A DNA stretch of 64,000 nucleotides from Dehalococcoides sp. JdFR-54 (GCA_002011475.1 MTNP01000037.1:77246-141245), one strand, 5' to 3'; shown: positions 16,026-55,145, counted from the first letter of the stretch. The notes: generated from the letters alone by a model not told the origin. Made by a program: numbers and translations.

Positions 16026-18086
16026 GTGTGGCACCTGGTGGAGATATTCCGTGAGGTGTGGCGGGTGCTCAAGGACGAGGGCAGCTTCTGGCTGGTGATG
16101 GGCGATACCTACGCAGGCTCAGGCTGCGGCTGGAGCAAGCACGGCGGCACGGTGGGAATCCATTCCATCGACACCCGTGACCCCGGCATCTGGCCCAAGG
16201 GAAGACCACCCCAGTTCATAAGCAGCTCCAGGTACCCGGTGATGCGGCCCAAGCAGAAGATGCTCATCCCGGACAGGGTAGCTATGGCGCTTCAGCAGGA
16301 CGGCTGGCTCCTCAGGAACGACTGTATATGGCACAAGCCAAACAGTATGCCCGCCAGTGTGAAGGACAGGCTCTCCAACACCTTTGAGCATATATTTCAC
16401 TTCGTCAAGCGGGAGCGCTATTACTACCACCTGGATGCCATCCGTGAGCCCCACAAGACCTCCAGCCTGGAGCGCTACCAGAGGGGGCTGAATCAGAAGG
16501 CGGGACTGGGAAGGGCCTATCAAGGGAAACACAAAGGCCGAGAAGCGCAAACAAACAGGGAAGGTGGCACCCTGGGCAGCGCGGTGAGAGAAGGGGTGTC
16601 CTGCCATCCCCCACAGTGGTTCCAGGAGATGTTCCCGCCTGACACCCGCTACAAAGGCAAGTTTGACGACCTGGCCGAGCTCCAGGTCAAGCGGCCTGGC
16701 AGCAGGGCCAACAACCTCAATTTGAAGGTGGCGCACCAGAACCGGAACTTCATGTCCTATAAGCCCAGGAACTTCGACCTGCTCTCGGAGGAGGACAAGG
16801 TGCGAGTCCTGGAGGCCCTGGAAGCAGGGTTGAGGGTGGACATCGTCACTAAGGCCACGGCCGCCAGCATCCGGGCCCATGACAGTGGCAGGGCCAGGGA
16901 GATCGCCGAGAAGGGCTACGCCATCTACATAAACCATCCCCGGGGGCGCAACCCGGGCGACGTCATCCACGCCGGAACCAGGCAATTCTCCAAGAAATGG
17001 CGCAAGGAGACGGGGGAGCCCAGCGCCAGCCAGGAGGAGAGGCTGGCCCTGTACCACCCCCTGGGCCGAAATCCTGGCGATGTGCTGGCACCTGCCCAGG
17101 ACAAATACCAGCAGGCCATAGAGGAGGGCAAAGACTACCGACCTCCCCACTGGCCGGGGAACAGCCGCACCGGGGCAGCGGTATCCTCAGCGTATTCCAG
17201 GGAATGCCCTGGGCATCCCCTGGGGAAGAACCCTGGCGACATTCTGTTTGCAGACGAGAGGGGAAAACTGGGAGCCGAAAGACAGGTGATGGAGGAGTCG
17301 GGGTATGTTAACCAGCACTCAGGCTACATGCTGGCGGGACTGAAAATAAAGTCAAGGCTGGGCATAGATATAAGACATCCCCTGGGGAAGAACCCTGGCG
17401 ACTTAATCGAGGCAGGAGAGCGCCTGGGCGTGGACGCCCAGCCTGGCGGCAAAGGGCGTCCTCGTGCCGGGCTGGACATCCCTCACCAGAATCACCCTTT
17501 GGGTCGCAACCCAGGGGATGTGATGGGCAGACACCACGGTAGTGGCCCCCAGTACAAGCTCTCTGGCTTGAGGCGAGGGCAGAAGTATGTCGAGAACCCT
17601 CAGCCCGGCAGTCGCAGCCATATCCGCATGGGAGCCGAGTTGACCCAAGCCGCCGAGGACAACCTGCATCCCCTGGGACGGAATCCGGGGGACGTAGCTC
17701 ACCTGGCAGATGGACTGGGGCTGCCCCTGGACACCGATAGCCTGTTCTGCGATTACATCATGCGTCTCATAGCGGAGAAAGAGCGTGCCAAGCAGGAAGG
17801 ACGGGAGCCCGACTTCTGGTCGGTGAACACTCAGCCTTACCCCGAAGCCCACTTTGCGGTATTCCCCGAGGAGATCTGTCGTAAGCCCATCCTGGCCACC
17901 TGCCCGCCTGGTGGCACGGTGCTGGACCCCTTCTGCGGCTCGGGCACCGTTCTTGCAATGGCCAGGAGGCTGGGCAGAAAGGCTATTGGCATAGACATAG
18001 TGGAGAAGTACTGCGAGCTGGCCGCCCGCCGCTGCCAGCAGCAGGTGCTGCCCCTGGGGGCAGGTGAAGGAGGTGACAGGTCATGA
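16026..18086 (+). CDS. DNA methyltransferase (N6_N4_Mtase family) body. Contains six degenerate HPLG(R/K)NPGD repeats and a canonical C-terminal motif I (VLDPFCGSGT)
   Basis: REVWRVLKDEGSFWLVMGDTY, ...HFAVFPEEICRKPILATCPPGGTVLDPFCGSGTVLAMARRLGRKAIGID. Frame 0 is open from 15849. Confidence 0.7.
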   Translation: MWHLVEIFREVWRVLKDEGSFWLVMGDTYAGSGCGWSKHGGTVGIHSIDTRDPGIWPKGRPPQFISSSRYPVMRPKQKMLIPDRVAMALQQDGWLLRNDCIWHKPNSMPASVKDRLSNTFEHIFHFVKRERYYYHLDAIREPHKTSSLERYQRGLNQKAGLGRAYQGKHKGREAQTNREGGTLGSAVREGVSCHPPQWFQEMFPPDTRYKGKFDDLAELQVKRPGSRANNLNLKVAHQNRNFMSYKPRNFDLLSEEDKVRVLEALEAGLRVDIVTKATAASIRAHDSGRAREIAEKGYAIYINHPRGRNPGDVIHAGTRQFSKKWRKETGEPSASQEERLALYHPLGRNPGDVLAPAQDKYQQAIEEGKDYRPPHWPGNSRTGAAVSSAYSRECPGHPLGKNPGDILFADERGKLGAERQVMEESGYVNQHSGYMLAGLKIKSRLGIDIRHPLGKNPGDLIEAGERLGVDAQPGGKGRPRAGLDIPHQNHPLGRNPGDVMGRHHGSGPQYKLSGLRRGQKYVENPQPGSRSHIRMGAELTQAAEDNLHPLGRNPGDVAHLADGLGLPLDTDSLFCDYIMRLIAEKERAKQEGREPDFWSVNTQPYPEAHFAVFPEEICRKPILATCPPGGTVLDPFCGSGTVLAMARRLGRKAIGIDIVEKYCELAARRCQQQVLPLGAGEGGDRS
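16935..17696 (+). repeat. six in-frame copies of the peptide motif HP[LR]G[RK]NPGD[VIL] (nt 16935, 17055, 17214, 17376, 17493, 17667) inside the methyltransferase gene
   Basis: Seen in the translation. Confidence 0.6.
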
Positions 18087-18376
18087 CCGACCTTGAGATG
18101 TGGTCGTTGCTGGTGGGCTTCTTCCTGCCACCGGCCATAGCCGTAGTTCAGCGGAAAGAGTGGTCCGACGGCGTGCGAGCGCTGGTCGCCTTTGCCGCCT
18201 GCATTGTGGCTGCCCTGGGCACCTGCTACTTCAACGGCTCGCTGGATGGCAGGAGCCTCGTATCCGCAACCCTGACGGTGCTGGTCACTGCTGTGGCCAC
18301 CTACAAGGCTTTCTGGCACAAGACCGGGGTGAGCGACGCCATAGAGAGGCTGACCCGCCGGAAGATCAAGGCATAG
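18083..18376 (+). CDS. small membrane protein (2 predicted TM helices)
   Basis: 97 aa, hydrophobic. ATGA overlap with the methyltransferase stop. Confidence 0.4.
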   Translation: MTDLEMWSLLVGFFLPPAIAVVQRKEWSDGVRALVAFAACIVAALGTCYFNGSLDGRSLVSATLTVLVTAVATYKAFWHKTGVSDAIERLTRRKIKA

Positions 18377-18638
18377 CTTCAGGAGATGAAGGCGACATTG
18401 GCACCAGGTAAGGAACCGCGATATAATCAGCTTGAACTCACCGAGAGGGAGCGCAAGCTCATCGAGTTCATTCGAGAACTGGAGTTCGGCTCCCTCACTG
18501 TGGAGGTGCAGAGGGGAGAGCCGGTGGTTATTAGACAGCCCCTTAAGACGGTGAAGCTTTGAGTTTATGGCAATGGCTGTGTGGCGGGGCCTATGAAAAA
18601 GTGTTATCATTGAGCTGGAGAGAGGCAGGTGGCCTAAA

Positions 18639-19727
18639 ATGGTAACCGATGCGGTTCAGAAGTGGGTGGAGAATGCAGAGAGAGGCATCTTGCACAGAAG
18701 GCCTGGGCATGTGCTGACCAGTAGTAAGGAACTTAAGAAGTTAGGCAAATCTGATGTCGCTGAAAGCCTTTTAAGACAAGCGTTGGCGGAACTTCCTGCT
18801 GAAATTGACAAAACTAGAATACTTGTCGACCTCTGCTCTATAGTTATGCAGACAAATCCTGCTGAGGTTCTAGACCTTGTCAAAATGGGTGGGAAGAAGG
18901 ACCCAGGTTTGCTCCTAATGGAAGCAACAGCATTGGGGCGGCTGGAGAAGCGTGACGAAGCAATAGCTCGGCTGGAAGACGAAATTAAGTTAGACCCTCA
19001 CCTTGGAAAGAACGTCTTTATTGCCACCAAATTAGCGACATTGTACTTAGAAGAGGGGAGAAATCAAGAAACTATCAAGTTCTTAGAGCCCTTGGTTAGC
19101 GCAGGACACTTTGGACGCCATCTCCAAATTAAACAAATCCTGGCGGATGCATACATCAAGACTGGAAGAGCTGATAAAGCACTTGAACTGTTAAGTGGCT
19201 TGAGGGACGACCGGAGCCGCGAACTCGCTAACAGAGCGCAAGAAGTCCTCGGCGAGGGAGCACCCGTAGCGCCAGGTGGAGGACCTCGTGTCTTCGTAGT
19301 GCATGGGCATGATAGGCCTTCCCTTTCTGAGCTTAAGAATTTACTTTATAAGATTGGTGCCGAGCCTTTAACCTTCGATGATCTCCCCAAGCCTGGATCC
19401 CCGACCGTAATTGAGCTTTTGGAAAAACATGTTCCCACCTTTGACGCACTTGTTGCGCTTCTTACACCGGATGATGAAGGCAGAAAACGAGGCGAGACGG
19501 AGTGGGAGTTGAGAGCGAGGGAGAATGTCTTGATAGAAGCTGGCTACGGACTAATTTCCCGACGCGAAAGAAGCCTGATTGTGGCCCTGGGTGGAGTGTC
19601 AATCCCCTCTGACCTTGAGGGCATTCATCGCGTAGTAGGCGATGAGTGGACTGCCGCGGTAGGAATGAAGGTAGCAAGACGGCTACGCGATATGCAGCTT
19701 AACGTGGATGCATCAAAAGCGGCATAA
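18639..19727 (+). CDS. TPR-like N-terminal domain fused to a TIR-like nucleotide-binding domain (PF10137-type); moron
   Basis: C-terminal VFVVHGHD...ALLTPDDEG...RARENVLIEAGYGLISRRERSLIVALGGVSIPSDLEGIH fits the predicted-nucleotide-binding TIR-like family. GC is markedly lower than the flanks and its own terminator follows. Confidence 0.6.
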   Translation: MVTDAVQKWVENAERGILHRRPGHVLTSSKELKKLGKSDVAESLLRQALAELPAEIDKTRILVDLCSIVMQTNPAEVLDLVKMGGKKDPGLLLMEATALGRLEKRDEAIARLEDEIKLDPHLGKNVFIATKLATLYLEEGRNQETIKFLEPLVSAGHFGRHLQIKQILADAYIKTGRADKALELLSGLRDDRSRELANRAQEVLGEGAPVAPGGGPRVFVVHGHDRPSLSELKNLLYKIGAEPLTFDDLPKPGSPTVIELLEKHVPTFDALVALLTPDDEGRKRGETEWELRARENVLIEAGYGLISRRERSLIVALGGVSIPSDLEGIHRVVGDEWTAAVGMKVARRLRDMQLNVDASKAA

Positions 19728-19825
19728 GCAGAAGACAGCGGCGAAGGCCTCGCAGGTCGTCGTGGATAGGAAATAGAAATAGCGTGAGAAAAGTCTAAAA
19801 CCGAATACGCCAGGGAGGACAACTC

Positions 19826-19858
19826 GCGGCAAGCTTCGAAAGAGGTTTGCCGCTTTTT
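19826..19858 (+). terminator. rho-independent terminator (gcggcaa-loop-ttgccgc-TTTTT)
   Basis: 7-bp GC stem plus a T5 run, 100 nt after the TIR-like gene. Confidence 0.55.
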
Positions 19859-20298
19859 GTTTGCCCACGAGGAACAGCAGGGAATGACTACCGGAAATAC
19901 GCATATTTGTGTCCAAAGGAAAGGCTCACTTTTGAGTGCTCGGGGTGAGCTGGGCTCTGTAAGCACTCTCCGGGCCTCTGCTCTCGTCAGGAGGTGCTCC
20001 CTGGAAGAGGTGCAGAAGGGGCTGAAGAAGGCTGCGCCCGCCTCCGCCGGGGCTGGCCGTTCTGGGCCTGCGGGTGGAGTGCGCATAACACCATGTTATC
20101 TGCACTCTTCCGTAGCTATGATTTCAGCCTTGTTGCCGGGCTTTCCGGCTAAAAAATTCAAGATTTTCCCCCACGCGGCGCAGCGCCATTTTGTCATCCC
20201 TCACCTTCCAGGTGCTTCACCGTTGCGGGCGCTGTCGGGGGTTCTGTTGGGGCTTTGTTACGGTCGCCCCCGCGCTTTGTTACGGAGTGTTGGAGTCT

Positions 20299-20955
20299 AT
20301 GGCTGACAGAAACCCCTCTGAAAAGCAAAACCGCGAGGGCTTGCGCGGGGTGTCTGTCTCCGAAGGGGAAAAGAGAAGGCCCGGCGAGCACGGCCTGCTC
20401 CCTGGCCTGTGCCGAGTATGCCAGAGCCCCCATCGCAAGGACTATGAGCGGAGGATGGCTGAGGGGTGGTCTGGCCGCAGGCTGGAGCGATACAGCAGGG
20501 AGATTGGGGAGCCCATCTCGGTGTCCAGCTTCCTGAATCACAGGGAGAAGCACTTCAAGGGGGAGCTGGAGAAGCTCAAGGACGAGCGGATGGAGGAGAT
20601 AGCCAGGAGCCGAATCAGGCTGGGGATGGAGGCCATAGAGGTGCTGAAGTCCAACCTGGAGGTGATGAACAAGGGCAAGGAAGCTCTGGCTAAGGTGTTC
20701 GCTAACCCTGAGGGGCTGTCGGGCACCATGATGGGCAACGCCGCCAGGCTCATGGGCGAGATACGGCTCACCTCGGACGCCCTGGAGGCCAAGCTGGAGA
20801 AGCTGCGGGGCCTGGGCGAGGTGGATGAGGAGGCCCTGGCCTCGGACCTTACCAGGCTCATTGGCCTCCTCTGCCCTGAGTGTCGGGTGCGGGTGGCCGA
20901 GGAGATCGGCCTGGACCCTGGGGACATCGTGAAGACGGCCAGGGGGTTGCTATGA
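20299..20955 (+). CDS. putative terminase small subunit (assigned by position)
   Basis: 218 aa. ATGA overlap with the large terminase start. Coiled-coil C-terminus. Confidence 0.4.
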   Translation: MADRNPSEKQNREGLRGVSVSEGEKRRPGEHGLLPGLCRVCQSPHRKDYERRMAEGWSGRRLERYSREIGEPISVSSFLNHREKHFKGELEKLKDERMEEIARSRIRLGMEAIEVLKSNLEVMNKGKEALAKVFANPEGLSGTMMGNAARLMGEIRLTSDALEAKLEKLRGLGEVDEEALASDLTRLIGLLCPECRVRVAEEIGLDPGDIVKTARGLL

Positions 20956-22274: not shown

Positions 22275-23602
22275 GCTGGCTTGACCGCCTGACAGGGAAG
22301 AGACGGGGGCCCAGGGTCCTGGAGAGCCTGGTGCGAGTGGGCACCTATGGCGACGCCCAGGCAGCCGAGGCCCGCCGCCGACCCGAGGAGGGGAAGTGGC
22401 TCACCCGGGTGGACCCGCAGAAGCTGTGCCTGCTCTACATCGTCGAGCCTACCTTCTTCCGGGCGGTGAACACCTACGCCCATATCCTGTCCTCCCTGCC
22501 CTACAGGGTGGAATCGGAGAGCGAGGAGGCAAAGAAAGTAGTAACTGACTTCTGCCAGGGCATCGACCTCCAGGGCAGGATCGAGGAGATAGTGCGCCAC
22601 CAGGGGATCATCGGCAACGCCTTCGCCGAGCTTATCAGGAACGGGGCAGGCCACATCGTTGACCTTCTGGTGGTGGAGAACCCGGAGACCTTCGACTTCA
22701 TCAGGAATGCCTCGGGGGACATCGAGTTCGACCAGGACGGCCTGCCCAGAGGCTACGAGCAGAAGCTGTCAAAGGAGATAAGGGGCAGGCAGTTCTCCAG
22801 GGAGGACATCGTCCACTTCCGCCTGTTCACCGCCCCTGGCGTCTACTGGGGCATCGGCCTCATCGAGCCCCTCTACAAGACGGCGCTGCGCAAGCTCAAC
22901 ATCGAGGAGGCCCTGGCCGAGGTGGCCCACAAGAGGTCGGCCCCCATAGCGGTGTTCAGGATGGGGGTCCTGGAGCCCCAGGAGCGGATGCCCACCGCCC
23001 AGGAGCGCAAGGACCTGGAAGAGATGATGGCCAACCTCAAGAGCCAGAGCTACATCTTCCTGCCTCCCTACATCGGCCTGGAGTTCAAGTCGCCCGAGGG
23101 GATAGAGCGGGTGGTGGAGAGCCTGAAGCACTTCAACGAGCTCATGGCCACCGGGCTGGGGGTGCCCCCTACCATCCTGGGGCTCACCGATACCCCGGTG
23201 GGTGCGGCCAGGTCGGCAGATGTGGCCTTCGAGCGCAATATCAGGGCCTATCTCCGCTCCCTATCTCGCACCTTCGAGCGGGAGGTATTCGCCAGGCTGC
23301 TGGAGCAGGAGGGGATAGAGGCCCGGGTGCATCTCAGGTGGGGAGACCTCTCCGAGCCCGACAAGCTCTCCAGGGCGAGGAGGCTGGGCGTCTACGCCCG
23401 GGCGGGCCTGCTCTCCCCTGACCTCAGGCTGGAGAACTGGATCAGGCAGTACGAAGACCTGCCCGAAAAAGAAGAGGCCAGGGTTGCGCTCTCCGGCGAA
23501 GAGGAGCTTCGTAACCTCATCGGCCAGGAGATGCAGCGTCTGGAGGAGAAGGTTAGGGAGATAGTCAAGCAGGAGCTTAGAGATGAGTGGCAGGACTACT
23601 GA
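22271..23602 (+). CDS. portal protein
   Basis: 443 aa. GTGA overlap with terL. Position and size typical of a portal. Confidence 0.6.
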   Translation: MSWLDRLTGKRRGPRVLESLVRVGTYGDAQAAEARRRPEEGKWLTRVDPQKLCLLYIVEPTFFRAVNTYAHILSSLPYRVESESEEAKKVVTDFCQGIDLQGRIEEIVRHQGIIGNAFAELIRNGAGHIVDLLVVENPETFDFIRNASGDIEFDQDGLPRGYEQKLSKEIRGRQFSREDIVHFRLFTAPGVYWGIGLIEPLYKTALRKLNIEEALAEVAHKRSAPIAVFRMGVLEPQERMPTAQERKDLEEMMANLKSQSYIFLPPYIGLEFKSPEGIERVVESLKHFNELMATGLGVPPTILGLTDTPVGAARSADVAFERNIRAYLRSLSRTFEREVFARLLEQEGIEARVHLRWGDLSEPDKLSRARRLGVYARAGLLSPDLRLENWIRQYEDLPEKEEARVALSGEEELRNLIGQEMQRLEEKVREIVKQELRDEWQDY

Positions 23603-24335
23603 GAAGGTGCCGGAGCTTGAGCTTCTGCCCATATCCCGGAACCAGGCGGCGGCTTTTGTCCGGGAGCACCACTACGCCAGGAAGCTGCCCTCTACCTGCA
23701 AGCTCTACCTGGGCGGCTTCACCAGGGAGGGCCTCATGGCGGTGGCGGTCTGGGGCTATGGGGTGCGTCCCCTGCACACCGCCAGGAAGCTGGTCATGGG
23801 GGCCAGCACCGCCGAATACCTGGAGCTCAACCGCCTCTGCGTCCACGATTCGCTGCCCAGGAACAGCGAGAGCCATTTCCTATCGCTTTGCGTGAAGTGG
23901 ATAGAGCAGAACATGCCCCAGGTGGAGTGGCTCTTCTCCTTCGCCGACGGCATCTACGGCAAGCCGGGCTATGTGTATCAGGCAGCGGGCTGGCTCTGCG
24001 TGGGCAGGATACTCACCGAGAGATATGTCCTCGCCGATGGCACCGTTGTCCATCCCAGGCTGCCCGTCACCCGAAACGGCACCAGAACCTGGGCCTTCAT
24101 GGTGCGCCACTATCCGGGGATCAAGCGCCTCTGGGGATACCAGTTCAAATATCTCAAGCCCATAGGCTCCAGCACCGACAAGAGGCACGTGCTGAGGCGA
24201 TTGCTGGCGTCACCTCAGCCGTATCCGAAACATGGCGACTGCGTGATTTACGAGGCGGTGGAGGGCTCGAGGGTGAGCCGCCGTGTTTCCTTCACGGAGG
24301 GGCAGGTTCGACTCCTGCCCACCGCTCCAGCTTGA
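23583..24335 (+). CDS. Mom-like acyltransferase-fold protein (candidate DNA-modification enzyme)
   Basis: ...ELNRLCVHDSLPRNSESHFLS...LFSFADGIYGKPGYVYQAAGWLCVG resembles the Mom/GNAT-like pattern (SFAD...G..G.vYqAagW). Confidence 0.4.
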   Translation: MSGRTTEKVPELELLPISRNQAAAFVREHHYARKLPSTCKLYLGGFTREGLMAVAVWGYGVRPLHTARKLVMGASTAEYLELNRLCVHDSLPRNSESHFLSLCVKWIEQNMPQVEWLFSFADGIYGKPGYVYQAAGWLCVGRILTERYVLADGTVVHPRLPVTRNGTRTWAFMVRHYPGIKRLWGYQFKYLKPIGSSTDKRHVLRRLLASPQPYPKHGDCVIYEAVEGSRVSRRVSFTEGQVRLLPTAPA

Positions 24336-26038: not shown

Positions 26039-27174
26039 TAAGGGTTACTTTCCTGGGCACCAGAGCCGAGGTGGAAATACCTCAGGAGGGCCACGACGAT
26101 CCCCAGTGCCAGGAAGCCCGTCGCCTGGGTAATGACTACTACCATAAGCTGCATTCCTCCCTGCTCATTGAGGCAGAGGGCAGCAGGCTCATGCTCGATG
26201 CCGGGGAGGGGCACGAGGAGATGGTGGCCAGGGTAAAGCCCGACGCCATCCTGGTCACCCATGCCCATCCCGACCACCTCTCCAGAAGGCTGGAAGCCCT
26301 TGAGCCTGCCATCCCCGTCTACATGAGCGAGGATACCGCCGAGGTTATCAAACTGCCCCACGAGCAGGTATTTCCTGAAGACAAGCCCTTTGAGGTGGCG
26401 GGGTTCAAGGTGGTGGCCCATCCCGTTGTCCACTCCCTGGTGGCCCCAGCTGTTTGCTTTAAGGTGTCAAAGGGGGACTTCACCCTGGTCTATGCCCCGG
26501 ATGTGGTCTCCATACCCGACCGCCAGCACTTCCTCAAGGGCGTTGACCTCTACATCGGCGATGGCTCCTCCCTTACCAGGGACATCATCCGCCGCAGGGA
26601 CGATAAGCTCATCGGGCATGCCAGTATGCTCAGGCAGCTTCGCTGGGCAGAGGGGATGAAGCAGGTTCTCTTCACCCATGTGGGGCACCTGAAGAAGACC
26701 GAGGCCGATGTCAACCAGGCCCTGCGCATCGCCTCCGATGGGAGGGCCCGCCTGGCCCGGGACGGGATAAGCCTGGAGTTTGAGAGCCTCCAGGTCACCA
26801 TCGAGACCATTGCCCCGGTTCTGGCTCCAGCTATCCCCACCAGAGCTGAGCCTCAAGACCTTATCCAGGATGCAGAGAGCTACGATGCCTCTGCCCCCAG
26901 GGATGACCAACTCAGGGACGACTGGCGCATCGTCTGCGGCTGGTATGCCACCCTGAAGAGCGGCGGCGACATCAAGTTCGATGAGGCCACCATCGTGGCT
27001 CTGGGGCAGAAAATCCTCAAGGAGCTGCTGCGCCGCAAGCGGAAAGACCCCCTCAGTCTTTACCGCCCACCCCGGGGAGATGAAGGAGTATCCCAGGGAG
27101 CTCTACGAGCGCATCACCAGAGAGTGGGACCCAGAGGACAAAGCCTTCCTGGAGACCGAGCCGGAGGAGCTTGA
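26035..27174 (+). CDS. metallo-beta-lactamase-fold hydrolase (candidate nuclease)
   Basis: LVTHAHPDHL (HxHxDH) and further MBL motifs. The C-terminal ~30 codons overlap the next gene and look low-complexity, so the true stop is uncertain. Confidence 0.55.
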   Translation: MIRVTFLGTRAEVEIPQEGHDDPQCQEARRLGNDYYHKLHSSLLIEAEGSRLMLDAGEGHEEMVARVKPDAILVTHAHPDHLSRRLEALEPAIPVYMSEDTAEVIKLPHEQVFPEDKPFEVAGFKVVAHPVVHSLVAPAVCFKVSKGDFTLVYAPDVVSIPDRQHFLKGVDLYIGDGSSLTRDIIRRRDDKLIGHASMLRQLRWAEGMKQVLFTHVGHLKKTEADVNQALRIASDGRARLARDGISLEFESLQVTIETIAPVLAPAIPTRAEPQDLIQDAESYDASAPRDDQLRDDWRIVCGWYATLKSGGDIKFDEATIVALGQKILKELLRRKRKDPLSLYRPPRGDEGVSQGALRAHHQRVGPRGQSLPGDRAGGA

Positions 27175-30100
27175 GGCTACCACTGAGGGCATGAGCGAAC
27201 TGGAAGAGCTTGCCAGGCAGCCCTTTGGCTCCCCTGGCGGCAAGCTGTGGATGGCACCCCGGATAGCCTCCCTGATACCACCACACAGGATATATGTGGA
27301 GCCCTTTGCCGGGGCTGCCGCCGTCTTCTGGGCCAAGGAGCCGTCTGAGGTGGAGGTGCTGGGCGACATCGACCCCGAGGTGATGTTCGCCTATCGCTTC
27401 ATCCAGAGGGCATCCTCCAAGGAGATAGCCCGGCTCAGGCGCTACGAGTGGCGGCACAGGAGGGACCTGTTTGAGGAGTTGAAGGCAGCCAGACCGAAGG
27501 ACGAGGTGGAGCGCTTCCGTCGTTTCCTCTACCTGCGAAAGGCAAGCTACGGCAGCCGGGGCGTCAACTTCATGGAGGCCAAGCGGGAGCGGGCCATCAG
27601 CCTGGACAGCTTTGAGAGGTGGCAGGAGCGGCTCAAGGGGGTGCACCTGCATACTGGCTCCTATGAGCAACTGCTGGACAGGTATGACGGCCAGGATGCC
27701 TTCTTCTACCTTGATCCCCCATACCCTGGCCACTGGCAGGGGGAGGAGCACGGCTTCACCCAGGAGCAGTGGGATGGCCTCATAGAGAGGCTGAAGAGGC
27801 TCAAGGGTAAGTTCATCCTGTCTCTGTTCAAAGACCTGGCGGGGACGCTGCCCTCTGGCTGGCATACCAGGCGCATCAAGACCCACCGCGCCCTGGGGCA
27901 GGACGATGCAGGCAAGGTGCTCTTCCACTACGAGTACCTGGCGGCCAACTTCCCCCTGGGCGGCAAACTGGAAGCAGAAGACGGACAAGTAGAAGACTTG
28001 CGCTGGGGCGCCAACCAGCCCTTCGGCAGCCCCGCTGGCAAGACCTATCTGGCCAGGCGCATCGCCGCCATGCTGCCTCCCCACAAGACCTATGTGGAGC
28101 CCTTCGCTGGTGGGGCCGCTGTCTTCTGGGCCAAGGAGCCGGTGGAGAGGGAGGTGCTCAACGACATCGACCCCGAGATAGCTTTCGCCTACCGCTTCCT
28201 GAAGAAGATGACCCCGGAGCAGTTCGCCCGCCTCAAGCGCTTCGACTGGGAGCGCCGGCCGGACAAGTTCGAGAAGGTCAAACGCTCAAAGCCCAGGGAC
28301 GAGGTGGAGCGGTTCCATAAGTTCTACTACCTCACCCTGGCCAGCTTTGGCCATGCCCGCAACACCTTTGGCTGGGGCAAGGGCGGCAATGTCATCGACA
28401 TAGACAAGCTGGAGCGCTACACCCAGCGGCTCAAGAACGTGGCCATCCACAACGAAGACTTCGAGCCGGTGGTGAGGCGCTACGATTCGCAGGAGACCGT
28501 ATTCTACCTCGATCCCCCTTATCCGGGCAGGGTGTTCCACGGGCCCCAGTTCACCCTGGAGGACCTGGAGCGGCTGATAAAGGTGCTCAAGGGCATCAAG
28601 GGCAGGTTTGTGCTCAGCCTGGGCACGGAGCATGAGAGGTATCTTCCGGAGTCCTGGTTCGTGAAGCGGGTCAAGGTGCAGCGCAACCTGGTGGACCCCA
28701 GGACGGGGAAGCCCATCCCCTCGGGCTTCGAGATACTGGCCGCCAACTTCACTCCCGGCAGGGAAAGCCTGGAGGCGCTGGAAACCGATGAAGAAGGCGA
28801 GGCCGCGCCCGACGAGGCGATGATCGAGCTCCCCGAAATTACAGACTTCATGGTGATACCCGACTTCATCAGCCTGGTGGGGAGCGCCGTCAAGGGAGAG
28901 GCGCCCAAAGACCTGGACATCCTCATCCGCTCGGCAGCCCGGAGCGAGAGCCTGGAGGTGGCTATCGGGAAGCAGCTTGACCCGGAGAAGCGGGGCTACC
29001 TCCACTTCATCTACGAGCCCGCTGGCCCCCACGACGACTACATCCCTCTGTGGGACCTGGTGGCTTTGAGGAAGCCCGGAATCGAGGTTGTAGAGGTGGG
29101 GCTGAGCAGAGCAAAGGGGCTCGTGCCCGGCAAGCCCTTTACTCCATTAAAGACGGCAGGCGGCTACGGGGAGCTGGAGTTCTCGGTGGACGCCGCCGAC
29201 AAGCTCTGGGAGACCTGGGGCCAGGGATACAAAGACGTGGGCCTCATAGTCCAGGAGAAGTTCGACGGCTACCGGCTCACCCTTCATCGCAAAGGCGACA
29301 GGGTCTTCGCCTTCTCCGAGGATGCCAGGCGAGATATTGTGAGCGCCCTTCCTGGCCTTGAGGAAGACCTCAAGGCCCTACCCGATGGCGACTTCATCCT
29401 GGATTCGGAGCTGCTGCTCTATGCCGAGGAAGCGGTGGAGCTTAATAACCCATACAAGCCCGGCGACAAGATAGAGCGCATGGACATGGCTTCCTTTCTG
29501 GGTAAAAGCCCGGCGGCCAGGTTCCGCGCCCTCTGCCAGGTTTTCGATTGCCTCTACCTGAACGGCGAAGACCTGCACCAGAGGCCCCAGACAGAGAGGC
29601 TGGAGGCGCTGCATAAGCTGCTGAGCCCGGTGGACACCCTCCACCTCAAAGAGGTGGAGAGCAGGCTGGTCCGCAGCAGGGAGGAATTCTTGAAAGCAGT
29701 CAAGTGGGCGGCCTCCAGGCCACACAGCGAAGGGGCCATGGTGAAGGTGGCCGACTCGGACTACCCCCTCACTGGACGCTCCAGCACGATAGCCAAGCTC
29801 AAGAACTTCAAGGAGATAAGGGGCAGGGTGGTCAGTAAGCGGAAGACCGAAGCAGGTGCCTACGTCTATGAGATCGCTCTCTCCGACGGCTCGGTCATCG
29901 GCTCCACCTATGCCACCAGGCTGGAGGCGGAGGTGGGCGACATCCTGGAGGTGCGCGCCGCCGAGATTAAGGTAAAGGAGGAGGATGGCAGGAGGGTCTT
30001 CACCTGGGATAACCCCATCGTGGTCAGCATAAAGCCAAAGGGAACGGCCCTCACCACCCCGGAGCAGGCCGAGGCGATGGCCAGGAAGCGCAGGGGCATG

Positions 30101-30934
30101 ACGGCAGAGGAAGAAGGCGAGACCAGAAGTGAAGCAGCGGAGAGGTTCTGGCGGGAGAACTGGCACAAGTCCTTCCCGCCCTCAGGCAAAGGGGAGTTCG
30201 TTTACCATCACCACTGGCGGGGGCTATCGGAGGAGGAGACAAAGCTATCTGAGGATGAGCTTCTCAAGACCGACCACTCGGTGCATGGTGACCTGAGGTT
30301 GCAGTTTTCCGACGAAGCCCTCTTTGGCTTCACCGTTTTCCTGGGCACCACCGATGAGATGGGGGAAGCTGGCGGAGACCGGTTGGCGAACCTGCCGCCT
30401 GACGATAAGCTCCAGGGGGCCTGGAAGCTGCAGCAGCCTATCGCCTGGCTCAAGGTAGGAAGGGAGAAGCCCCTGGTCACCGCGCCTGGTGAGGTGGGAG
30501 CTACCTCGGAGAAGTATTCCAAGTTCTTCGCCGAGGACTGGGGCACCTACGAGATAGGCGTATGGCGGGAGCACTTCTTCGAGCTTTTCCTTCATGGCAG
30601 GAAGCTCAAGGGGCGCTACACCATCCAGTATGCCCCACTGGGTGGCAGGAGGGTATGGCTCATCGGCAAGCCCAAGGACCAGACGCCCTACGCTGAGGCT
30701 CACGAGCTTGAGGACGTCGTTAAAGAGCTGAAGGGCAAAGGACAGAGATACCTGGTGTGGGCCAGGCCGGGCGAGGAGCCCAAACTAATCGAGGTTGGAA
30801 AGGCCGAACAGCTAACCTGTCCCAAATGCGGGGAGACCCTGGACCCGGGAACCACAAGGCTGGCAAAGCTGAGCGATGATTTCCACGATGTGTTCCGCTG
30901 TGCTCATTGTAGGCACATTTTTAGTCCAAGTTGA
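27080..30934 (+). CDS. multidomain fusion: two tandem Dam-like (D12-class) N6-adenine methyltransferase domains + ATP-dependent DNA ligase (KFDGYR) + LigD-like 3'-phosphoesterase domain + C-terminal zinc ribbon
   Basis: FGSPGGKLWMAPRIASLIPPH...FYLDPPYPG (nt ~27220-27760) and FGSPAGKTYLARRIAAMLPPH...FYLDPPYPG (nt ~28020-28540). Ligase motif I LIVQEKFDGYR at ~29245. PE-like HHHWRG...HGDLRL...DWGTYEIG...LFLHGRKLKGRY at 30180-30700. CPKCG...CAHC at the end. Confidence 0.75.
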   Translation: MKEYPRELYERITREWDPEDKAFLETEPEELEATTEGMSELEELARQPFGSPGGKLWMAPRIASLIPPHRIYVEPFAGAAAVFWAKEPSEVEVLGDIDPEVMFAYRFIQRASSKEIARLRRYEWRHRRDLFEELKAARPKDEVERFRRFLYLRKASYGSRGVNFMEAKRERAISLDSFERWQERLKGVHLHTGSYEQLLDRYDGQDAFFYLDPPYPGHWQGEEHGFTQEQWDGLIERLKRLKGKFILSLFKDLAGTLPSGWHTRRIKTHRALGQDDAGKVLFHYEYLAANFPLGGKLEAEDGQVEDLRWGANQPFGSPAGKTYLARRIAAMLPPHKTYVEPFAGGAAVFWAKEPVEREVLNDIDPEIAFAYRFLKKMTPEQFARLKRFDWERRPDKFEKVKRSKPRDEVERFHKFYYLTLASFGHARNTFGWGKGGNVIDIDKLERYTQRLKNVAIHNEDFEPVVRRYDSQETVFYLDPPYPGRVFHGPQFTLEDLERLIKVLKGIKGRFVLSLGTEHERYLPESWFVKRVKVQRNLVDPRTGKPIPSGFEILAANFTPGRESLEALETDEEGEAAPDEAMIELPEITDFMVIPDFISLVGSAVKGEAPKDLDILIRSAARSESLEVAIGKQLDPEKRGYLHFIYEPAGPHDDYIPLWDLVALRKPGIEVVEVGLSRAKGLVPGKPFTPLKTAGGYGELEFSVDAADKLWETWGQGYKDVGLIVQEKFDGYRLTLHRKGDRVFAFSEDARRDIVSALPGLEEDLKALPDGDFILDSELLLYAEEAVELNNPYKPGDKIERMDMASFLGKSPAARFRALCQVFDCLYLNGEDLHQRPQTERLEALHKLLSPVDTLHLKEVESRLVRSREEFLKAVKWAASRPHSEGAMVKVADSDYPLTGRSSTIAKLKNFKEIRGRVVSKRKTEAGAYVYEIALSDGSVIGSTYATRLEAEVGDILEVRAAEIKVKEEDGRRVFTWDNPIVVSIKPKGTALTTPEQAEAMARKRRGMTAEEEGETRSEAAERFWRENWHKSFPPSGKGEFVYHHHWRGLSEEETKLSEDELLKTDHSVHGDLRLQFSDEALFGFTVFLGTTDEMGEAGGDRLANLPPDDKLQGAWKLQQPIAWLKVGREKPLVTAPGEVGATSEKYSKFFAEDWGTYEIGVWREHFFELFLHGRKLKGRYTIQYAPLGGRRVWLIGKPKDQTPYAEAHELEDVVKELKGKGQRYLVWARPGEEPKLIEVGKAEQLTCPKCGETLDPGTTRLAKLSDDFHDVFRCAHCRHIFSPS

Positions 30935-31042: not shown

Positions 31043-33529
31043 CTACGATACTGACACTGACGCTTTCCAAATGCTTGTTGGAATTGTTACCCTTTCTTTC
31101 TTACCTACTGCAGCAGGATCCTTCACTAAATAGATATTGGGGTTCTCTGGTATTTCAGACACCACACAGAGGTAGAAGGAGTTCCTGTATTTGTCCGCCG
31201 TCTCTGTCTCGTTGCGATCTAGCTCAACATCTCGATCGTGGCTTAGTCCCTTGACTTCTATACGCATAGTTTCACCGCTGTGAGTCTCCGCTTCTATATC
31301 GTAACCGAAGTTCCTTTTATCCACTGGTTTGACGTTTCTATAGGCCGCTTTTAGTTTTTCTATAGCATAATTCATGGCAAATTCTTCCACGCCATTATCA
31401 GGGTCATCCTTGATTCCTCCGTTTTTGAGGAATTGCCGCCATGCTCTTAACTGGTCGTCATTCGTAACGCCAGTAAGATAGTCCACGCTCAGAAAATTGA
31501 GGCCAGATACATATTGCTGACGAGTTTCCCAGTCTCTCTCAGGTTTGAACTCCTTGGGGAAAAACACTTCTCTCGCTGCTCGCACCTCGCCTTGCTTTGT
31601 AAGAACCCAGAATTCCAAGCCTCTCCCGACTTCCTCTCCAAGGATTCGCTGGCATTGAATGGTATATAGTAGCAGGTCGCGTGGCGTAGGTTTGGGTGCA
31701 GTGGTTAAAATCCTGGGTAACAAAGCCTCTTTACAGACTGTGTTCGCGTCTAAGACCGGCACACCGGTCAATCCTGTGAGGAAGCCTCTAATATTTTTCC
31801 GTTCTTCTTCGCTCTTGGCTCTCCCCAGAATATCCGGGTGTAATATTGACCTAGACTTTTGCAGGGTTTCGGTTACATCCTTCAGAATGGGATCAGAGGG
31901 CTGGAAGTCGGGGAGCCATACATTCCTGCCTTCAAGAAGCTCTCCCTCTGCTGTCAACACGATCCTTGAGCTCCAGTAACCCTCCTGGTACCAATAGCCT
32001 TTTCTGCTATAGCTGCCACGCGGGTGCGTCTGGAGCCATAAATATAAGCTCCTGAACCACTCAGCCGCAGCAGAGCTTTTACATTTTTCCTCGAGGAATG
32101 CTTCGTTACTCAGTAGCCCCAGCCGATCTACTTTCTTGAAAGGTGACGAATCTGGTTCTACTACATCGGGAGCTATCACCTCCAAATCAGGTTGCCCACC
32201 CATAGCTGCCGCTATTTGGTCTTTGCTCAAGATACCCATACGTACAAGGTCATCAATGGCTTTCTGATCCTCGTTAACTTTTACTGCTTGTTTAGGCTTC
32301 GTCCAGCCTCCCTCTGCGGTGGGCACACACGTATCTTCTTCCAGATAGGTTTCTACTGGCTCAATCAGTTTAGGCCCGAATAGCTTGTCATGGGCTTCAA
32401 GGCCCTTCGACTTTGTGAACTCAAAGGCAGGCAGAAACTGGTACTTCCATGTCTTGTGATTCTTAAAACAGTTTATGGCCTCCTTGCATAGGTCAGCCAC
32501 CTGCTCTACTAGCCAGTGATTCCATTTCGCTTCATAGTTGATGGCCTCTCGTCCTGGCTGAACAAGAAAATCAGCTTGTATCGGAAACTTAGCGCCACTT
32601 CTTGCCTCACCCAACGGCAAAAAGGAGTATACGCCTCCATACATTGCCCCAGCCTGTAAAGGAGCGAGATTGCCTTCATTGTCAAGTGCAAAAGCTATGG
32701 CTATTTCTCTGCGAGTTACATTGGCTCTATATTCCTGTGTAAGCCTGTCTGCCTTCACCCAATCCGGCACTGAGCAAACTCGCCGGAAGAACCTGAACCT
32801 TTGCTCCTGCCCATTATGCCTGAGAGTTGTGATACCGTCCTCGCTTTCTCCGATGTTCTCCAGAGTCCAGGTTCGTCCGTATACCTCATCTACAATCTCT
32901 ATTCGCTTTAACCAGCGAAGGAATAGATATAGCTCGGTGCTCAGCCTTGTTACTTCCTGAAGCAGGGCTGAATAATAGGTCTCCTCCCTAAAAGGGATGA
33001 TGAACGTTGTCCTCTCGTGTTCGACGGCTTCCGAGGGTTGGTCAATCCAGATGGGTAAGACGTGCCATGGTGTGCGACTGGGGTCCTCCCACTCTTTATG
33101 GTTTCTGTCGAATTTGAATTGGAAGCCACCAGAATATACCTCAGGGCAATCAGTGACTTTAAAAACGGATTTGAATCCTATGCCCAGATATCCCAATGTG
33201 CCTTTTTCCGGCTTCTTTGATGACCTGATGCCACAGAGCGCCTTTACATCGTCTTGGTTAAAGGGACGGCCATTATGTATCACCTTTGCTCTATGCTGGT
33301 TAATTCTTACTTCGAACACACCGAGAGTCTCTAAACCCAAACCAGCATCCTCGGCATTCTGAAGTAGCTCAAGGACAAACCCAGAACTTCTCGTAAATAT
33401 GACTTGGGCGATCAATTTTAGAGCGTTAATATAATCGTCCCATATCCTTGTCCCTTTAGATGCTTTAATCTCCTCCTGGATAGTGTCTATAATTCTCTTT
33501 GCCTCGCGAGGATTCAAACCTACCGCCAT
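31043..33529 (-). CDS. GHKL-type (sacsin/MORC-like) ATPase with a C-terminal DUF3883/PD-(D/E)xK-like domain; low-GC moron
   Basis: N-terminal VLELLQNAEDAG (HATPase_c motif). C-terminal ...YDIEAETHSGETMRIEVKGL (D...E.K). Opposite strand to the flanking phage genes. AT-rich. Confidence 0.55.
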   Translation of the reverse strand: MAVGLNPREAKRIIDTIQEEIKASKGTRIWDDYINALKLIAQVIFTRSSGFVLELLQNAEDAGLGLETLGVFEVRINQHRAKVIHNGRPFNQDDVKALCGIRSSKKPEKGTLGYLGIGFKSVFKVTDCPEVYSGGFQFKFDRNHKEWEDPSRTPWHVLPIWIDQPSEAVEHERTTFIIPFREETYYSALLQEVTRLSTELYLFLRWLKRIEIVDEVYGRTWTLENIGESEDGITTLRHNGQEQRFRFFRRVCSVPDWVKADRLTQEYRANVTRREIAIAFALDNEGNLAPLQAGAMYGGVYSFLPLGEARSGAKFPIQADFLVQPGREAINYEAKWNHWLVEQVADLCKEAINCFKNHKTWKYQFLPAFEFTKSKGLEAHDKLFGPKLIEPVETYLEEDTCVPTAEGGWTKPKQAVKVNEDQKAIDDLVRMGILSKDQIAAAMGGQPDLEVIAPDVVEPDSSPFKKVDRLGLLSNEAFLEEKCKSSAAAEWFRSLYLWLQTHPRGSYSRKGYWYQEGYWSSRIVLTAEGELLEGRNVWLPDFQPSDPILKDVTETLQKSRSILHPDILGRAKSEEERKNIRGFLTGLTGVPVLDANTVCKEALLPRILTTAPKPTPRDLLLYTIQCQRILGEEVGRGLEFWVLTKQGEVRAAREVFFPKEFKPERDWETRQQYVSGLNFLSVDYLTGVTNDDQLRAWRQFLKNGGIKDDPDNGVEEFAMNYAIEKLKAAYRNVKPVDKRNFGYDIEAETHSGETMRIEVKGLSHDRDVELDRNETETADKYRNSFYLCVVSEIPENPNIYLVKDPAAVGKKERVTIPTSIWKASVSVS

Positions 33530-35683: not shown

Positions 35684-35724
35684 GCTTCACACACATCCAT
35701 CACTCAGCTTCGCCAGGAAGTCAA
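35684..35724 (-). promoter_or_regulatory. conserved leftward promoter-like motif, copy A (gcttcacacacatccatcactc + ggaagtcaa)
   Basis: 22-nt block identical to 37996-38017. On the minus strand it reads TTGACTTCC...GAGTGATGGATGTGTG. Confidence 0.45.
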
Positions 35725-36897: not shown

Positions 36898-37150
36898 CCT
36901 CGTCCTCCCTGCCCAGGTAGCGGATGAGCTCCGCCCGCTCCAGGCTCGCCAGGAATCGCTCAGCAGAAACGGTATCCAGGGGCTTCCCGTAGACCATCTC
37001 CGTCCGCTCGGCCACCCGACCCTTGTATTCCCCCAGGCTGAGGTGTCTCTCAAACAGGGCCGAGCGCCTCATGGCCCTGACTACCTCAGTGGGGCTATCG
37101 CCACTGAAGCGGTCTCCAGTGAAGGTCATCTCGATAACTATCCTTGCCAT
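36878..37150 (-). CDS. hypothetical small protein within the amidoligase cassette
   Basis: 90 aa from MARIVIEM. Overlaps its neighbours. Confidence 0.4.
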   Translation of the reverse strand: MARIVIEMTFTGDRFSGDSPTEVVRAMRRSALFERHLSLGEYKGRVAERTEMVYGKPLDTVSAERFLASLERAELIRYLGREDEDGDCQG

Positions 37151-37152
37151 CT

Positions 37153-37977: not shown

Positions 37978-37995
37978 CTCCTTCCTCCGAATCTG

Positions 37996-55120: not shown

Positions 55121-55145
55121 GCCCTCCTGTGCTTCTTGCCTTGCC

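What the first reader, a model, noticed from the sequence alone, without database searches (positions are those of the whole stretch)
18639..19858. Phage-carried TPR + TIR-like (PF10137-type) protein with its own terminator
The C-terminal ~130 aa match the predicted-nucleotide-binding TIR-like family found in CBASS/Thoeris-associated effectors (VFVVHGHD...LLTPDD...ARENVLIEAGY...PSDLEGI). The N-terminus looks TPR-like. The gene sits in a sharp GC trough and is followed by a clean rho-independent terminator, which is the classic moron layout. This is either a stand-alone NADase-type immunity or anti-immunity gene, or one half of a system whose partner is elsewhere.
Basis: partly seen in the sequence, partly recalled or inferred. 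Interest (0 to 1): 0.6.

Follow-up and report, generated by a model that had tools for sequence, protein, structure and literature searches.

The report
Prophage-carried TPR–TIR NADase defence gene
A prophage in a Dehalococcoidia genome carries a foreign-looking gene that fuses a TPR repeat domain to a TIR domain with an intact NAD+-cleaving site; it is most likely a one-gene anti-phage suicide switch, which is a known kind of prophage cargo rather than a new one.

Summary
ORF 18639..19727 (+, 362 aa) is real. It has an N-terminal 13-helix TPR solenoid (aa 5-204) and a C-terminal PF10137 (Cap12/Pycsar-type) TIR domain (aa 217-351; 86.7 bits against a cutoff of 24.7).

The TIR fold is predicted with pLDDT about 93, and its best PDB matches are TIR-STING. 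The SfSTING active-site residues R78/N80/E84/D110 align to R294/N296/E300/D325, each conserved in at least 90% of 72 relatives.

The gene is true phage cargo. A sister phage (TerL 73% identical) keeps the flanking genes but holds a DarT plus ADP-ribosylglycohydrolase pair in the same slot. GC3 is 0.47 against 0.76-0.87 for the neighbours. A -20.4 kcal/mol hairpin with a U-run follows the gene.

No cyclase, STING or SAVED domain, ThsA, or other conserved partner was found in five independent genomic contexts. This TPR module occurs only fused to TIR domains, of two Pfam types.

The best reading is a stand-alone sensor-effector: the TPR senses a trigger, the TIR domains cluster, and NAD+ is depleted, which excludes superinfecting phages. 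A validated single-protein TIR+TPR defence already exists (E. coli TIR-II). I call this a new member of a known kind, of modest interest. Enzyme activity, trigger and defence phenotype are all untested.

The parts
18083..18376 (+). Left anchor of the variable slot. A 97-aa predicted membrane protein conserved in the sister phage.
   Evidence: 86% identical to L109 5705-6001. DNA homology with L109 ends at window 18354.
18355..20301 (+). Variable cargo slot (moron hotspot) between the conserved early-region genes and the packaging genes.
   Evidence: No DNA similarity to the sister phage L109 across this span. L109 instead holds DarT, an ADP-ribosylglycohydrolase and a 137-aa ORF here, also at low GC.
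18386..18562 (+). Small 58-aa ORF (DUF2292/YezD-like) inside the slot, with intermediate GC (GC3 0.64). Probably co-resident cargo rather than a conserved partner.
   Evidence: PF10055, 24.0 bits against a cutoff of 22. Absent from all 109 loci then held, including every homologue context.
18398..18427 (+). Sigma-70-like promoter match (TTGGCA-18 nt-TATAAT, 11 of 12). A possible own promoter, unproven.
   Evidence: Only 2 sites were found against 1.1 expected, the site lies inside the DUF2292 ORF, and Dehalococcoidia promoter rules are unknown.
18627..18632 (+). Shine-Dalgarno-like AGGTGG, 6 nt upstream of ATG 18639.
   Evidence: Read directly from the sequence. The alternative start at M94 has no such site.
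18639..19727 (+). TPR-TIR coding sequence, 362 aa including the stop codon.
18651..19250 (+). TPR solenoid, aa 5-204, 13 helices. Proposed sensor or autoinhibitory module.
   Evidence: AF2 pLDDT 94-98 across the domain. Foldseek top hits are consensus TPR proteins and MamA. TPR_19 and TPR_14 are above cutoff. End-to-end relatives fall in about 16 representative clusters. Of 10 scanned, 9 are fused to a TIR domain and one (P0078) had no Pfam hit.
19251..19286 (+). Flexible linker, aa 205-216 (GEGAPVAPGGGP).
   Evidence: pLDDT falls to about 69 in this stretch. Its length varies among homologues.
19287..19691 (+). PF10137 (Cap12/PycTIR-type) TIR domain, aa 217-351.
   Evidence: Pfam E=1.5e-24. 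The domain-only AF2 model has pLDDT 92.5. Foldseek top hits are TIR-STING 9lmq and 7un8 (TM 0.63-0.65), then the SPARTA TIR. A profile search against PDB sequences gives Cap12 6e-12 and PycTIR 2e-10.
19536..19538 (+). Codon for E300, the predicted catalytic glutamate. It lies within R294-x-N296-V-x-x-E300-x-G302. D325 is the predicted residue supplied in trans.
   Evidence: Aligns to SfSTING E84, with R78, N80 and D110 aligning to the other three. Each is conserved in at least 90% of 72 relatives, and E300 is invariant in the 53-sequence TIR alignment.
19826..19863 (+). Intrinsic terminator: 12-bp stem, GAAA loop, then TTTTTGTTTG.
   Evidence: The hairpin alone folds at -20.4 kcal/mol, and it is one of 5 comparably strong + strand sites in the window.
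20302..20955 (+). Right anchor: a TerS-like packaging gene. The probable start is M38 of the listed ORF.
   Evidence: 38% identical to L109 9321-10010, which sits immediately upstream of TerL. TerL and portal follow it here.

Best explanation
This is a horizontally acquired, single-gene abortive-infection (superinfection-exclusion) module carried as cargo by a temperate phage of a Dehalococcoidia host.

Proposed mechanism. The N-terminal TPR solenoid acts as sensor and probably keeps the protein inactive. When it binds a trigger, the proteins cluster. By analogy the trigger is most likely a protein or assembly of an incoming phage. Clustering brings the C-terminal PF10137 TIR domains into the assembly that completes the NADase site: E300 is the catalytic residue, R294 and N296 contact the substrate, and D325 comes from the neighbouring subunit. 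NAD+ is then hydrolysed, the infected lysogen stops growing, and the competing phage fails to spread.

The downstream terminator keeps transcription of the cassette from reading into the phage packaging operon.

Shown here: the domain architecture, the fold, the conservation of active-site residues, cargo status in a variable phage slot, and the absence of a conserved partner gene. Inferred: NADase activity, activation by clustering, the nature of the trigger, expression in the lysogen, and the defence phenotype.
For: TIR identity. PF10137 scores 86.7 bits against a cutoff of 24.7. The full-length AF2 model has pLDDT 93.8 and the TIR-only model 92.5. The best structural matches are the NADase TIR domains of TIR-STING/Cap12 and SPARTA. 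The profile matches Cap12 (6e-12), SfSTING (1e-10) and PycTIR (2e-10).

Active site. The SfSTING residues R78, N80, E84 and D110 (PMC9402430) align to R294, N296, E300 and D325. All four are at least 90% conserved.

Defence labels. The best PADLOC match is the single-gene candidate PDC-S35 (E=9e-30).

Cargo status. The sister phage L109 keeps the methylase, the 97-aa protein (86% identical), TerS, TerL (73% identical) and portal. In the slot it carries DarT plus an ADP-ribosylglycohydrolase instead. GC3 is 0.47 against 0.76-0.87 for neighbours.

Other contexts. One homologue sits in a defence island with type I R-M, Abi_C and SNase genes. Another is a singleton between gmk and dus. A third lies next to a serine recombinase and a Dcm methylase. 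In all four homologue loci measured and in the window, the gene has lower GC than its surroundings.

TPR module. It is found fused to two Pfam TIR types, PF10137 and TIR_2, and no other effector domain was found on it.

Precedents. E. coli TIR-II is a validated single-protein TIR+TPR defence, also reported in Caudoviricetes (PMC11350192). SpbK is a TIR NADase on a mobile element that is activated by clustering on a phage portal (PMC12847820).
Against: There are no functional data. PDC-S35 is an untested candidate (bioRxiv 2024.01.29.577857), and its HMMs cover only aa 179-360, not the TPR.

The characterised PF10137 TIRs (Cap12, PycTIR) are gated by cyclic nucleotides, not by proteins.

TPR-S, a proposed nucleotide-sensing TPR, gives sub-threshold hits in 5 of 9 family members. 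A small-molecule trigger therefore cannot be excluded.

The full-length model has pTM 0.68, so the relative position of the two domains, and with it autoinhibition, is not resolved.

The promoter is only a consensus match.

One homologue (L029) is followed by an overlapping nucleoside-hydrolase gene, which hints that some family members may have a partner.
Confidence: 0.6

Rival explanations
1. It is a second-messenger-gated effector whose partner lies elsewhere. The TPR would bind a nucleotide signal, such as a cADPR isomer or a cyclic nucleotide, made by a host-encoded TIR or cyclase. The PF10137 TIR would then deplete NAD+, as in Cap12, PycTIR or the TPR-containing ThsI.
For: All characterised PF10137 TIRs are signal-gated effectors. 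TPR-S gives sub-threshold hits in 5 of 9 family members, with a best E-value of 1.6e-4. A TPR domain is proposed to perceive cADPR in type VIII Thoeris ThsI (bioRxiv 2025.12.03.692087).
Against: The TPR-S hits are below the Pfam cutoff and no better than the generic TPR families. They also fall on different repeats in different members. No synthase lies next to the gene in five independent contexts. A cargo gene that moves alone between phyla would lose an unlinked partner.
Confidence: 0.13
2. It is a signal-generating TIR in the manner of ThsB. The TPR would sense infection, and the TIR would make an ADPR-derived messenger for an effector encoded elsewhere.
For: The catalytic site is intact. 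SpbK produces N1-cADPR as well as ADPR. [quoted passage not shown]
Against: No effector gene is conserved next to it. The nearest characterised relatives (Cap12, PycTIR) deplete NAD+ themselves. The best Pfam model is not a ThsB-type family.
Confidence: 0.1
3. It is a phage counter-defence or competition factor acting on host immunity. It could work as a TIR decoy or a signal degrader that blunts host TIR, CBASS or Thoeris signalling. Alternatively it could be an NAD+-dependent addiction toxin paired with the DUF2292 ORF.
For: The gene is phage-encoded. TIR domains are uncommon in viral genomes and their role there has been called enigmatic (PMC9503650). A small ORF sits just upstream in the same slot.
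Against: Full-length homologues lie in non-phage chromosomal and defence-island contexts. Strictly conserved catalytic residues argue against a decoy role. DUF2292 is absent from every other locus. The equivalent slot in the sister phage holds a DarT-type defence/toxin module.
Confidence: 0.07

Closest known systems
Cap12 (TIR-STING; SfSTING, PDB 7UN8 and 9LMQ) and PycTIR (PDB 8JSJ), the founding members of Pfam PF10137
   Same: They share the TIR subfamily, both by HMM and by structure. The R-x-N-V-x-x-E-x-G catalytic helix and the P-S/T-D loop aspartate that completes the neighbour's active site are both conserved. A beta-hairpin insertion before helix C is predicted here as well.
   Different: There is no STING, SAVED or cNMP-binding sensor, and no adjacent CD-NTase or pyrimidine cyclase. 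A TPR solenoid occupies the sensor position. The NCBIfam Cap12 model scores 17 bits against a cutoff of 450.
PADLOC candidate PDC-S35 (single-gene, untested)
   Same: It is the best PADLOC match (E=9e-30). It shares the TIR domain plus the preceding helix, and it is also a single-gene system.
   Different: Only positions 82-261 of the 264-position profile align, to aa 179-360 here. The N-terminal part of PDC-S35 is replaced by a 200-aa TPR module. PDC systems are predictions from genomic embedding, not validated defences.
E. coli TIR-II (Wang et al. 2024, PMC11350192)
   Same: It is a single-protein TIR+TPR anti-phage system that depends on the TIR catalytic residue. It has also been reported in Caudoviricetes and proposed to mediate competition between phages.
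   Different: Sequence relatedness, domain order and TIR subtype could not be compared, because no sequence was available. About 30% of TIR-II systems also carry an ATPase, which this protein lacks.
SpbK of ICEBs1 (PMC12847820)
   Same: It is a TIR NADase carried on a mobile element, with an N-terminal sensor domain, that works as a single gene. Binding to a phage portal clusters the TIR domains and activates them.
   Different: The N-terminal domain is unrelated and not a TPR. The TIR subfamily is different. SpbK's trigger is known, whereas none is known here.
Avs / bacterial NLR-like STAND proteins with TPR sensors, and SARM1 (ARM-SAM-TIR)
   Same: Both have an alpha-solenoid repeat sensor coupled to an effector that fires on oligomerisation. 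In SARM1 a solenoid autoinhibits a TIR NADase.
   Different: This protein has no STAND NTPase or SAM oligomerisation module. It is only 362 aa, with the TPR joined to the TIR by a 12-residue linker.

Membership tests
Pfam PF10137 (CAP12/Pycsar effector TIR) | HMM score above the gathering threshold | tested here: met
   86.7 bits against 24.7, E=1.5e-24, aa 217-332 matching profile positions 1-115 of 119. All 9 family members match.
Pfam PF10137 (CAP12/Pycsar effector TIR) | TIR (flavodoxin-like beta-alpha) fold | tested here: met
   The AF2 TIR-only model has pLDDT 92.5 and pTM 0.86. Foldseek top hits are TIR-STING 9lmq and 7un8 (TM 0.63-0.65, rmsd 3.0 A over 141 columns), followed by the SPARTA, TLR10 and MyD88 TIRs.
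Catalytically active TIR NADases | Catalytic glutamate on helix C plus the substrate-contacting residues | tested here: met
   E300, R294, N296 and D325 align to SfSTING E84, R78, N80 and D110. Each is conserved in at least 90% of 72 relatives.
Catalytically active TIR NADases | NAD+ hydrolysis or cyclisation activity | not testable with these tools
   This needs an enzyme assay.
CBASS Cap12 / Pycsar PycTIR systems | A cyclic-nucleotide sensor domain (STING, SAVED or cNMP-binding) fused to the TIR | tested here: not met
   The N-terminus is a TPR solenoid. NCBIfam Cap12 scores 17.4 bits against a cutoff of 450. The PADLOC PycTIR model matches only the TIR part, at E=1.6e-4.
CBASS Cap12 / Pycsar PycTIR systems | An adjacent CD-NTase or pyrimidine cyclase gene | tested here: not met
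   The neighbours are a methylase, a 97-aa membrane protein, DUF2292 and TerS/TerL. None was seen next to homologues either. Not every small ORF in the window was scanned.
Thoeris (ThsB + ThsA) | A ThsB-type TIR with an adjacent ThsA-type effector | tested here: not met
   The best model is PF10137, with no ThsB-type Pfam hit. No PADLOC Thoeris hit was returned. No effector gene is adjacent.
PADLOC PDC-S35 | Full-length match to a PDC-S35 HMM as a single gene | tested here: inconclusive
   The match is strong (E=9e-30) but partial. Profile positions 82-261 of 264 align to aa 179-360, and the N-terminal regions differ.
E. coli TIR-II (TIR+TPR single-protein defence) | TIR and TPR domains in one protein | tested here: met
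   The family is described in PMC11350192.
E. coli TIR-II (TIR+TPR single-protein defence) | Sequence homology to the validated TIR-II protein | not testable with these tools
   The accessions are in supplementary data that are not held. The TPR module has no match in 72,556 plasmids or 50,697 phage records.
Phage moron (cargo cassette) | Inserted between genes that are adjacent or conserved in a related phage | tested here: met
   Synteny with L109 is kept on both sides, and the slot content is different.
Phage moron (cargo cassette) | Deviant base composition | tested here: met
   GC 0.498 and GC3 0.47, against GC3 0.76-0.87 for the flanking genes.
Phage moron (cargo cassette) | Own terminator and own promoter | tested here: inconclusive
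   The terminator is strong. The promoter is only a consensus match in a clade whose promoters are unknown.
Avs / STAND NLR-like receptors | A central STAND NTPase domain | tested here: not met
   The 362-aa protein is fully accounted for by the TPR (aa 5-204), the linker and the TIR (aa 217-351). There is no NTPase hit.

The most novel reading that the evidence does not exclude
The 200-aa N-terminal TPR module may define a distinct, NTPase-free minimal pattern-recognition receptor. It is found only fused to TIR domains of two different subfamilies. It occurs in bacteria (Dehalococcoidia, Verrucomicrobia), and a weaker full-length match comes from a Hadesarchaea MAG. It is absent from all sequenced phages and plasmids. 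On this reading it would bind a conserved phage assembly directly and use that assembly as the scaffold that clusters the TIR domains. That would be a SpbK-like logic reached independently. Its presence in a prophage hotspot that also hosts a DarT-type module would point to a modular NAD+-based arsenal in phages of uncultured Chloroflexota.
Probability: 0.25. Interest if true: 0.5.

Novelty: new member of a known kind. Interest (0 to 1): 0.3.

Why it matters
If confirmed, this adds a compact (362 aa) TPR-TIR sensor-effector to the list of single-protein NAD+-depleting defences. It would also show that temperate phages of Dehalococcoidia trade defence cargo at a fixed slot upstream of the terminase genes, as P2-like and lambdoid phages do. 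Dehalococcoidia is a poorly studied, mostly uncultured clade.

The TPR module is small and occurs only with TIR domains, so it would be a tractable system for finding what a repeat sensor without an NTPase recognises. A practical by-product is a corrected gene start: the public annotation omits the first 93 residues, which is nearly half of the sensor.

It does not change current concepts. TIR NADase effectors, TPR sensors and prophage-borne defence genes are all established.

Tried and rejected
1. TPR-S (PF20308, a proposed nucleotide-sensing TPR). The hits are sub-threshold, no better than generic TPR families, and fall on different repeats. I did not adopt it.

2. DUF2292 as a partner or antitoxin. 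It is absent from all other loci.

3. Whole-chain Foldseek was dominated by TPR proteins. I re-modelled the TIR domain alone to get TIR-specific matches.

5. The terminase scan of viral contigs gave only a 4-kb fragment, L011, too short to show the slot. The metagenome scan gave the informative L109.

6. A search for att direct repeats flanking the prophage found only 11-13-nt matches of no clear meaning. The integrase is a serine recombinase, so long repeats are not expected.

7. Rfam found nothing in the window at gathering thresholds, including in the 570-nt non-coding stretch after the gene.

8. A literature search for PDC-S35 returned no papers.

9. TIR-II accessions could not be retrieved.

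10. The 149-aa ORF at 19857-20306 overlapping the terminator has no homologue in the loci held, and I treat it as non-coding.

Full report
**1. Observation**

- Pfam gives PF10137 (CAP12/Pycsar effector TIR) at E=1.5e-24, 86.7 bits against a cutoff of 24.7, over aa 217-332. TPR_19 and TPR_14 are also above their cutoffs, in the N-terminal half.
- The GC trough is real. The gene has GC 0.498 and GC3 0.47. The methylase, the 97-aa protein, TerS, TerL and portal have GC3 0.76-0.87. The gene lies at the 5.6th percentile of same-length windows across the prophage.
- The terminator is real. It has a 12-bp stem with a GAAA loop at 19826-19853, folding at -20.4 kcal/mol, followed by TTTTTGTTTG. The loose consensus scan is not enriched over shuffles. 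A stricter energy-based scan finds only five such sites on the + strand in 64 kb.

The public annotation of this gene (P0001, a Dehalococcoidia MAG, 269 aa) starts at M94. Eight full-length homologues at 48-65% identity have conserved N-terminal residues, and an AGGTGG site lies 6 nt upstream of ATG 18639. Both support the 362-aa form.

**2. Context**

The window holds host genes at its left end (an epimerase, proB-like and proA-like genes, 1-3.6 kb). A prophage of about 50 kb follows. Its genes include:

- a serine recombinase (4285-5994, - strand) and a sigma factor;
- a UvrD helicase and a PD-(D/E)XK nuclease;
- an N6/N4 methylase;
- a TerS-like gene, TerL, a portal, a Mom-like protein and a MuF-like protein;
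- a Dam-ligase fusion;
- tail genes, running to 53.6 kb.

After the prophage comes a tyrosine integrase and a separate low-GC island. The TPR-TIR gene sits between the early/replication block and the packaging block.

**3. Is it a moron?**

A related element, L109 from a 113-kb metagenome contig, has a TerL that is 73% identical. It keeps the same order of PD-(D/E)XK nuclease, methylase, a 99-aa membrane protein (86% identical), TerS-like gene (38%), TerL and portal.

DNA similarity stops at window 18354 and resumes inside the packaging genes. In L109 the gap holds a DarT-family ADP-ribosyltransferase, an ADP-ribosylglycohydrolase and a 137-aa ORF. That block is also lower in GC than its phage.

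So the slot from about 18355 to about 20300 is a cargo hotspot, and the TPR-TIR gene is one of its alternative occupants. The 58-aa DUF2292 ORF that shares the slot has intermediate GC and does not recur next to any homologue.

**4. The protein**

The full-length AF2 model has pLDDT 93.8 and pTM 0.68. It shows 13 helices (aa 5-204) forming a TPR solenoid, a low-confidence linker (aa 205-216), and a beta-alpha domain (aa 217-351).

The TIR domain modelled alone has pLDDT 92.5 and pTM 0.86. Its best PDB matches are TIR-STING/Cap12 (9lmq and 7un8; TM 0.63-0.65), then the SPARTA TIR-APAZ, then animal TIR domains.

A profile of the TIR domain hits Cap12 (6e-12), SfSTING (1e-10) and PycTIR (2e-10) among PDB sequences. 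In SfSTING, R78 and N80 contact the substrate. E84 is the catalytic residue. D110 reaches into the dimer mate's active site (PMC9402430). These four align to R294, N296, E300 and D325 here, and each is conserved in at least 90% of 72 relatives.

Neither is missing.

**5. Partner or stand-alone?**

The protein has no STING, SAVED or cNMP-binding domain. NCBIfam Cap12 scores 17 bits against a cutoff of 450. Full-length homologues occur in five unrelated settings:

- this prophage slot;
- a singleton between gmk and dus, seen in several contigs;
- a defence island with type I R-M, Abi_C and SNase genes;
- a Verrucomicrobia locus where an overlapping nucleoside-hydrolase gene follows it;
- a Hadesarchaea locus next to a serine recombinase and a Dcm methylase.

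No neighbour is shared among these. In the four homologue loci measured (L001, L007, L029, L030), as in the window, the gene has lower GC than its locus. This is the signature of a self-sufficient, mobile, single-gene module. The best PADLOC match is the single-gene candidate PDC-S35 (E=9e-30). The match covers only aa 179-360, and PDC systems are untested predictions.

**6. The TPR module**

I searched aa 1-212 exhaustively against 1.84 billion representative proteins. About 16 clusters match end to end, and everything weaker is generic TPR. Of ten such clusters scanned, six carry PF10137, three carry a classical TIR_2 domain, and one has no Pfam hit.

Pairwise alignments confirm that P0030 and P0079 share the TPR module (33-46% identity) but continue into FISYARED or FISHS-type TIRs. 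The module is therefore dedicated to TIR outputs and has been recombined with two TIR subtypes.

It has no match in 50,697 phage records or 72,556 plasmid records. The TIR half alone matches 4 phage records, 17 IMG/VR contigs, phrog_16442 (function unknown) and 1,136 plasmids.

**7. Mechanism**

The best-supported reading, at about 0.6, is a stand-alone sensor-effector. The TPR binds a trigger. The TIR domains cluster. The active site is completed in trans. NAD+ is depleted. The lysogen is lost, but the prophage's clonal kin are protected from a competing phage.

[quoted passage not shown] A validated single-protein TIR+TPR defence, TIR-II, exists in E. coli and was also noted in Caudoviricetes. 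Iyer et al. proposed superinfection limitation for viral TIRs.

The rivals are:

- a second-messenger-gated effector with a distant synthase (0.13);
- a ThsB-like signal generator (0.10);
- an anti-defence or addiction role (0.07).

Each is weakened by the lack of any conserved partner, by the non-phage contexts of homologues, or by the strictly conserved catalytic residues.

**8. Novelty and score**

The fold, the catalytic logic, the TPR-plus-TIR combination and prophage carriage all have precedents. What is specific here:

- a small, previously undescribed TPR module that occurs only with TIR domains;
- its pairing with a PF10137-type TIR without any nucleotide sensor;
- its location in a cargo hotspot of Dehalococcoidia phages that alternatively holds a DarT-type module.

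I rate it a new member of a known kind, with interest 0.3. Nothing functional has been tested.

Noticed in passing
L109:6217-8328 (equivalent to the window slot 18355-20300): The sister phage carries a DarT-family protein (PF14487, E=3e-8) followed by a 477-aa ADP-ribosylglycohydrolase (PF03747, E=5e-56) in the same slot, also at low GC. This looks like a DarTG-like pair in which an ARH-type hydrolase takes the place of the usual macrodomain antitoxin. That interpretation comes from my own knowledge of DarTG.
   Followed up: partly
window 31043-33529 (- strand): An 828-aa protein sits in a sharp GC trough (0.47-0.49) inside the prophage, on the opposite strand. It has Sacsin/HATPase-like and NOV_C domains and a strong PADLOC TmtA (Tiamat) match (E=3.5e-97), but it covers only about the first half of the TmtA profiles. 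It is a second defence-type cargo gene.
   Followed up: partly
window 37812-39951: A third low-GC cargo block (about 0.52) holds two ORFs of 296 and 305 aa with no informative family hit. A very strong terminator-like hairpin (-24.2 kcal/mol) ending near 39951 follows it. The layout matches the TPR-TIR cassette.
   Followed up: no
window 16026-18086 and L109:3094-5721: The phage N6/N4 DNA methylase has a long insertion carrying 6 copies (8 in L109) of the decapeptide HP(L/x)G(R/K)NPGD(V/I), spaced about 40-60 aa apart. The motif resembles the segment that precedes the catalytic motif in this methylase family (from my own knowledge). The purpose of the repeats is unknown.
   Followed up: partly
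window 54227-64000: A separate low-GC (about 0.50-0.53) integrated island follows the prophage. It holds a tyrosine integrase (54227-55150, - strand), an 893-aa type I-like methylase with a fused specificity domain, two unknown ORFs (373 and 363 aa), and a 907-aa cytidine-deaminase / NACHT-NB-ARC / TPR protein (60597-63320). The last looks like an Avs/NLR-like receptor with a deaminase effector, but it has no PADLOC hit.
   Followed up: partly
window 23583-24335 and 24252-24329: A Mom-family protein (PF25680, E=3e-47) lies between the portal and MuF-like genes. ARAGORN calls a tRNA-Gly(UCC) that overlaps its 3' end, but Rfam reports no tRNA at gathering threshold, so the tRNA call is doubtful.
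   Followed up: partly
window 26981-30934: A 1317-aa ORF combines a D12-class Dam methyltransferase domain with an ATP-dependent DNA ligase domain. The equivalent ORF in L109 is 1589 aa.
   Followed up: no
window 35687-37977 (- strand): An Amidoligase_2 gene and a class-II glutamine amidotransferase gene lie on the opposite strand inside the prophage, at phage-like GC. Their function there is unknown.
   Followed up: no
L029:459-2790: In a Verrucomicrobia MAG, the TPR-TIR homologue (43% identical) is followed by a 415-aa ORF that overlaps it by about 20 nt and has an inosine-uridine nucleoside hydrolase domain (E=2.5e-9). This may be a lineage-specific two-gene variant.
   Followed up: no
window 18639-18917: The public annotation of this gene (P0001, G4O03_01865, 269 aa) starts at M94 and omits 93 conserved N-terminal residues, which is almost half of the TPR module.
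   Followed up: yes
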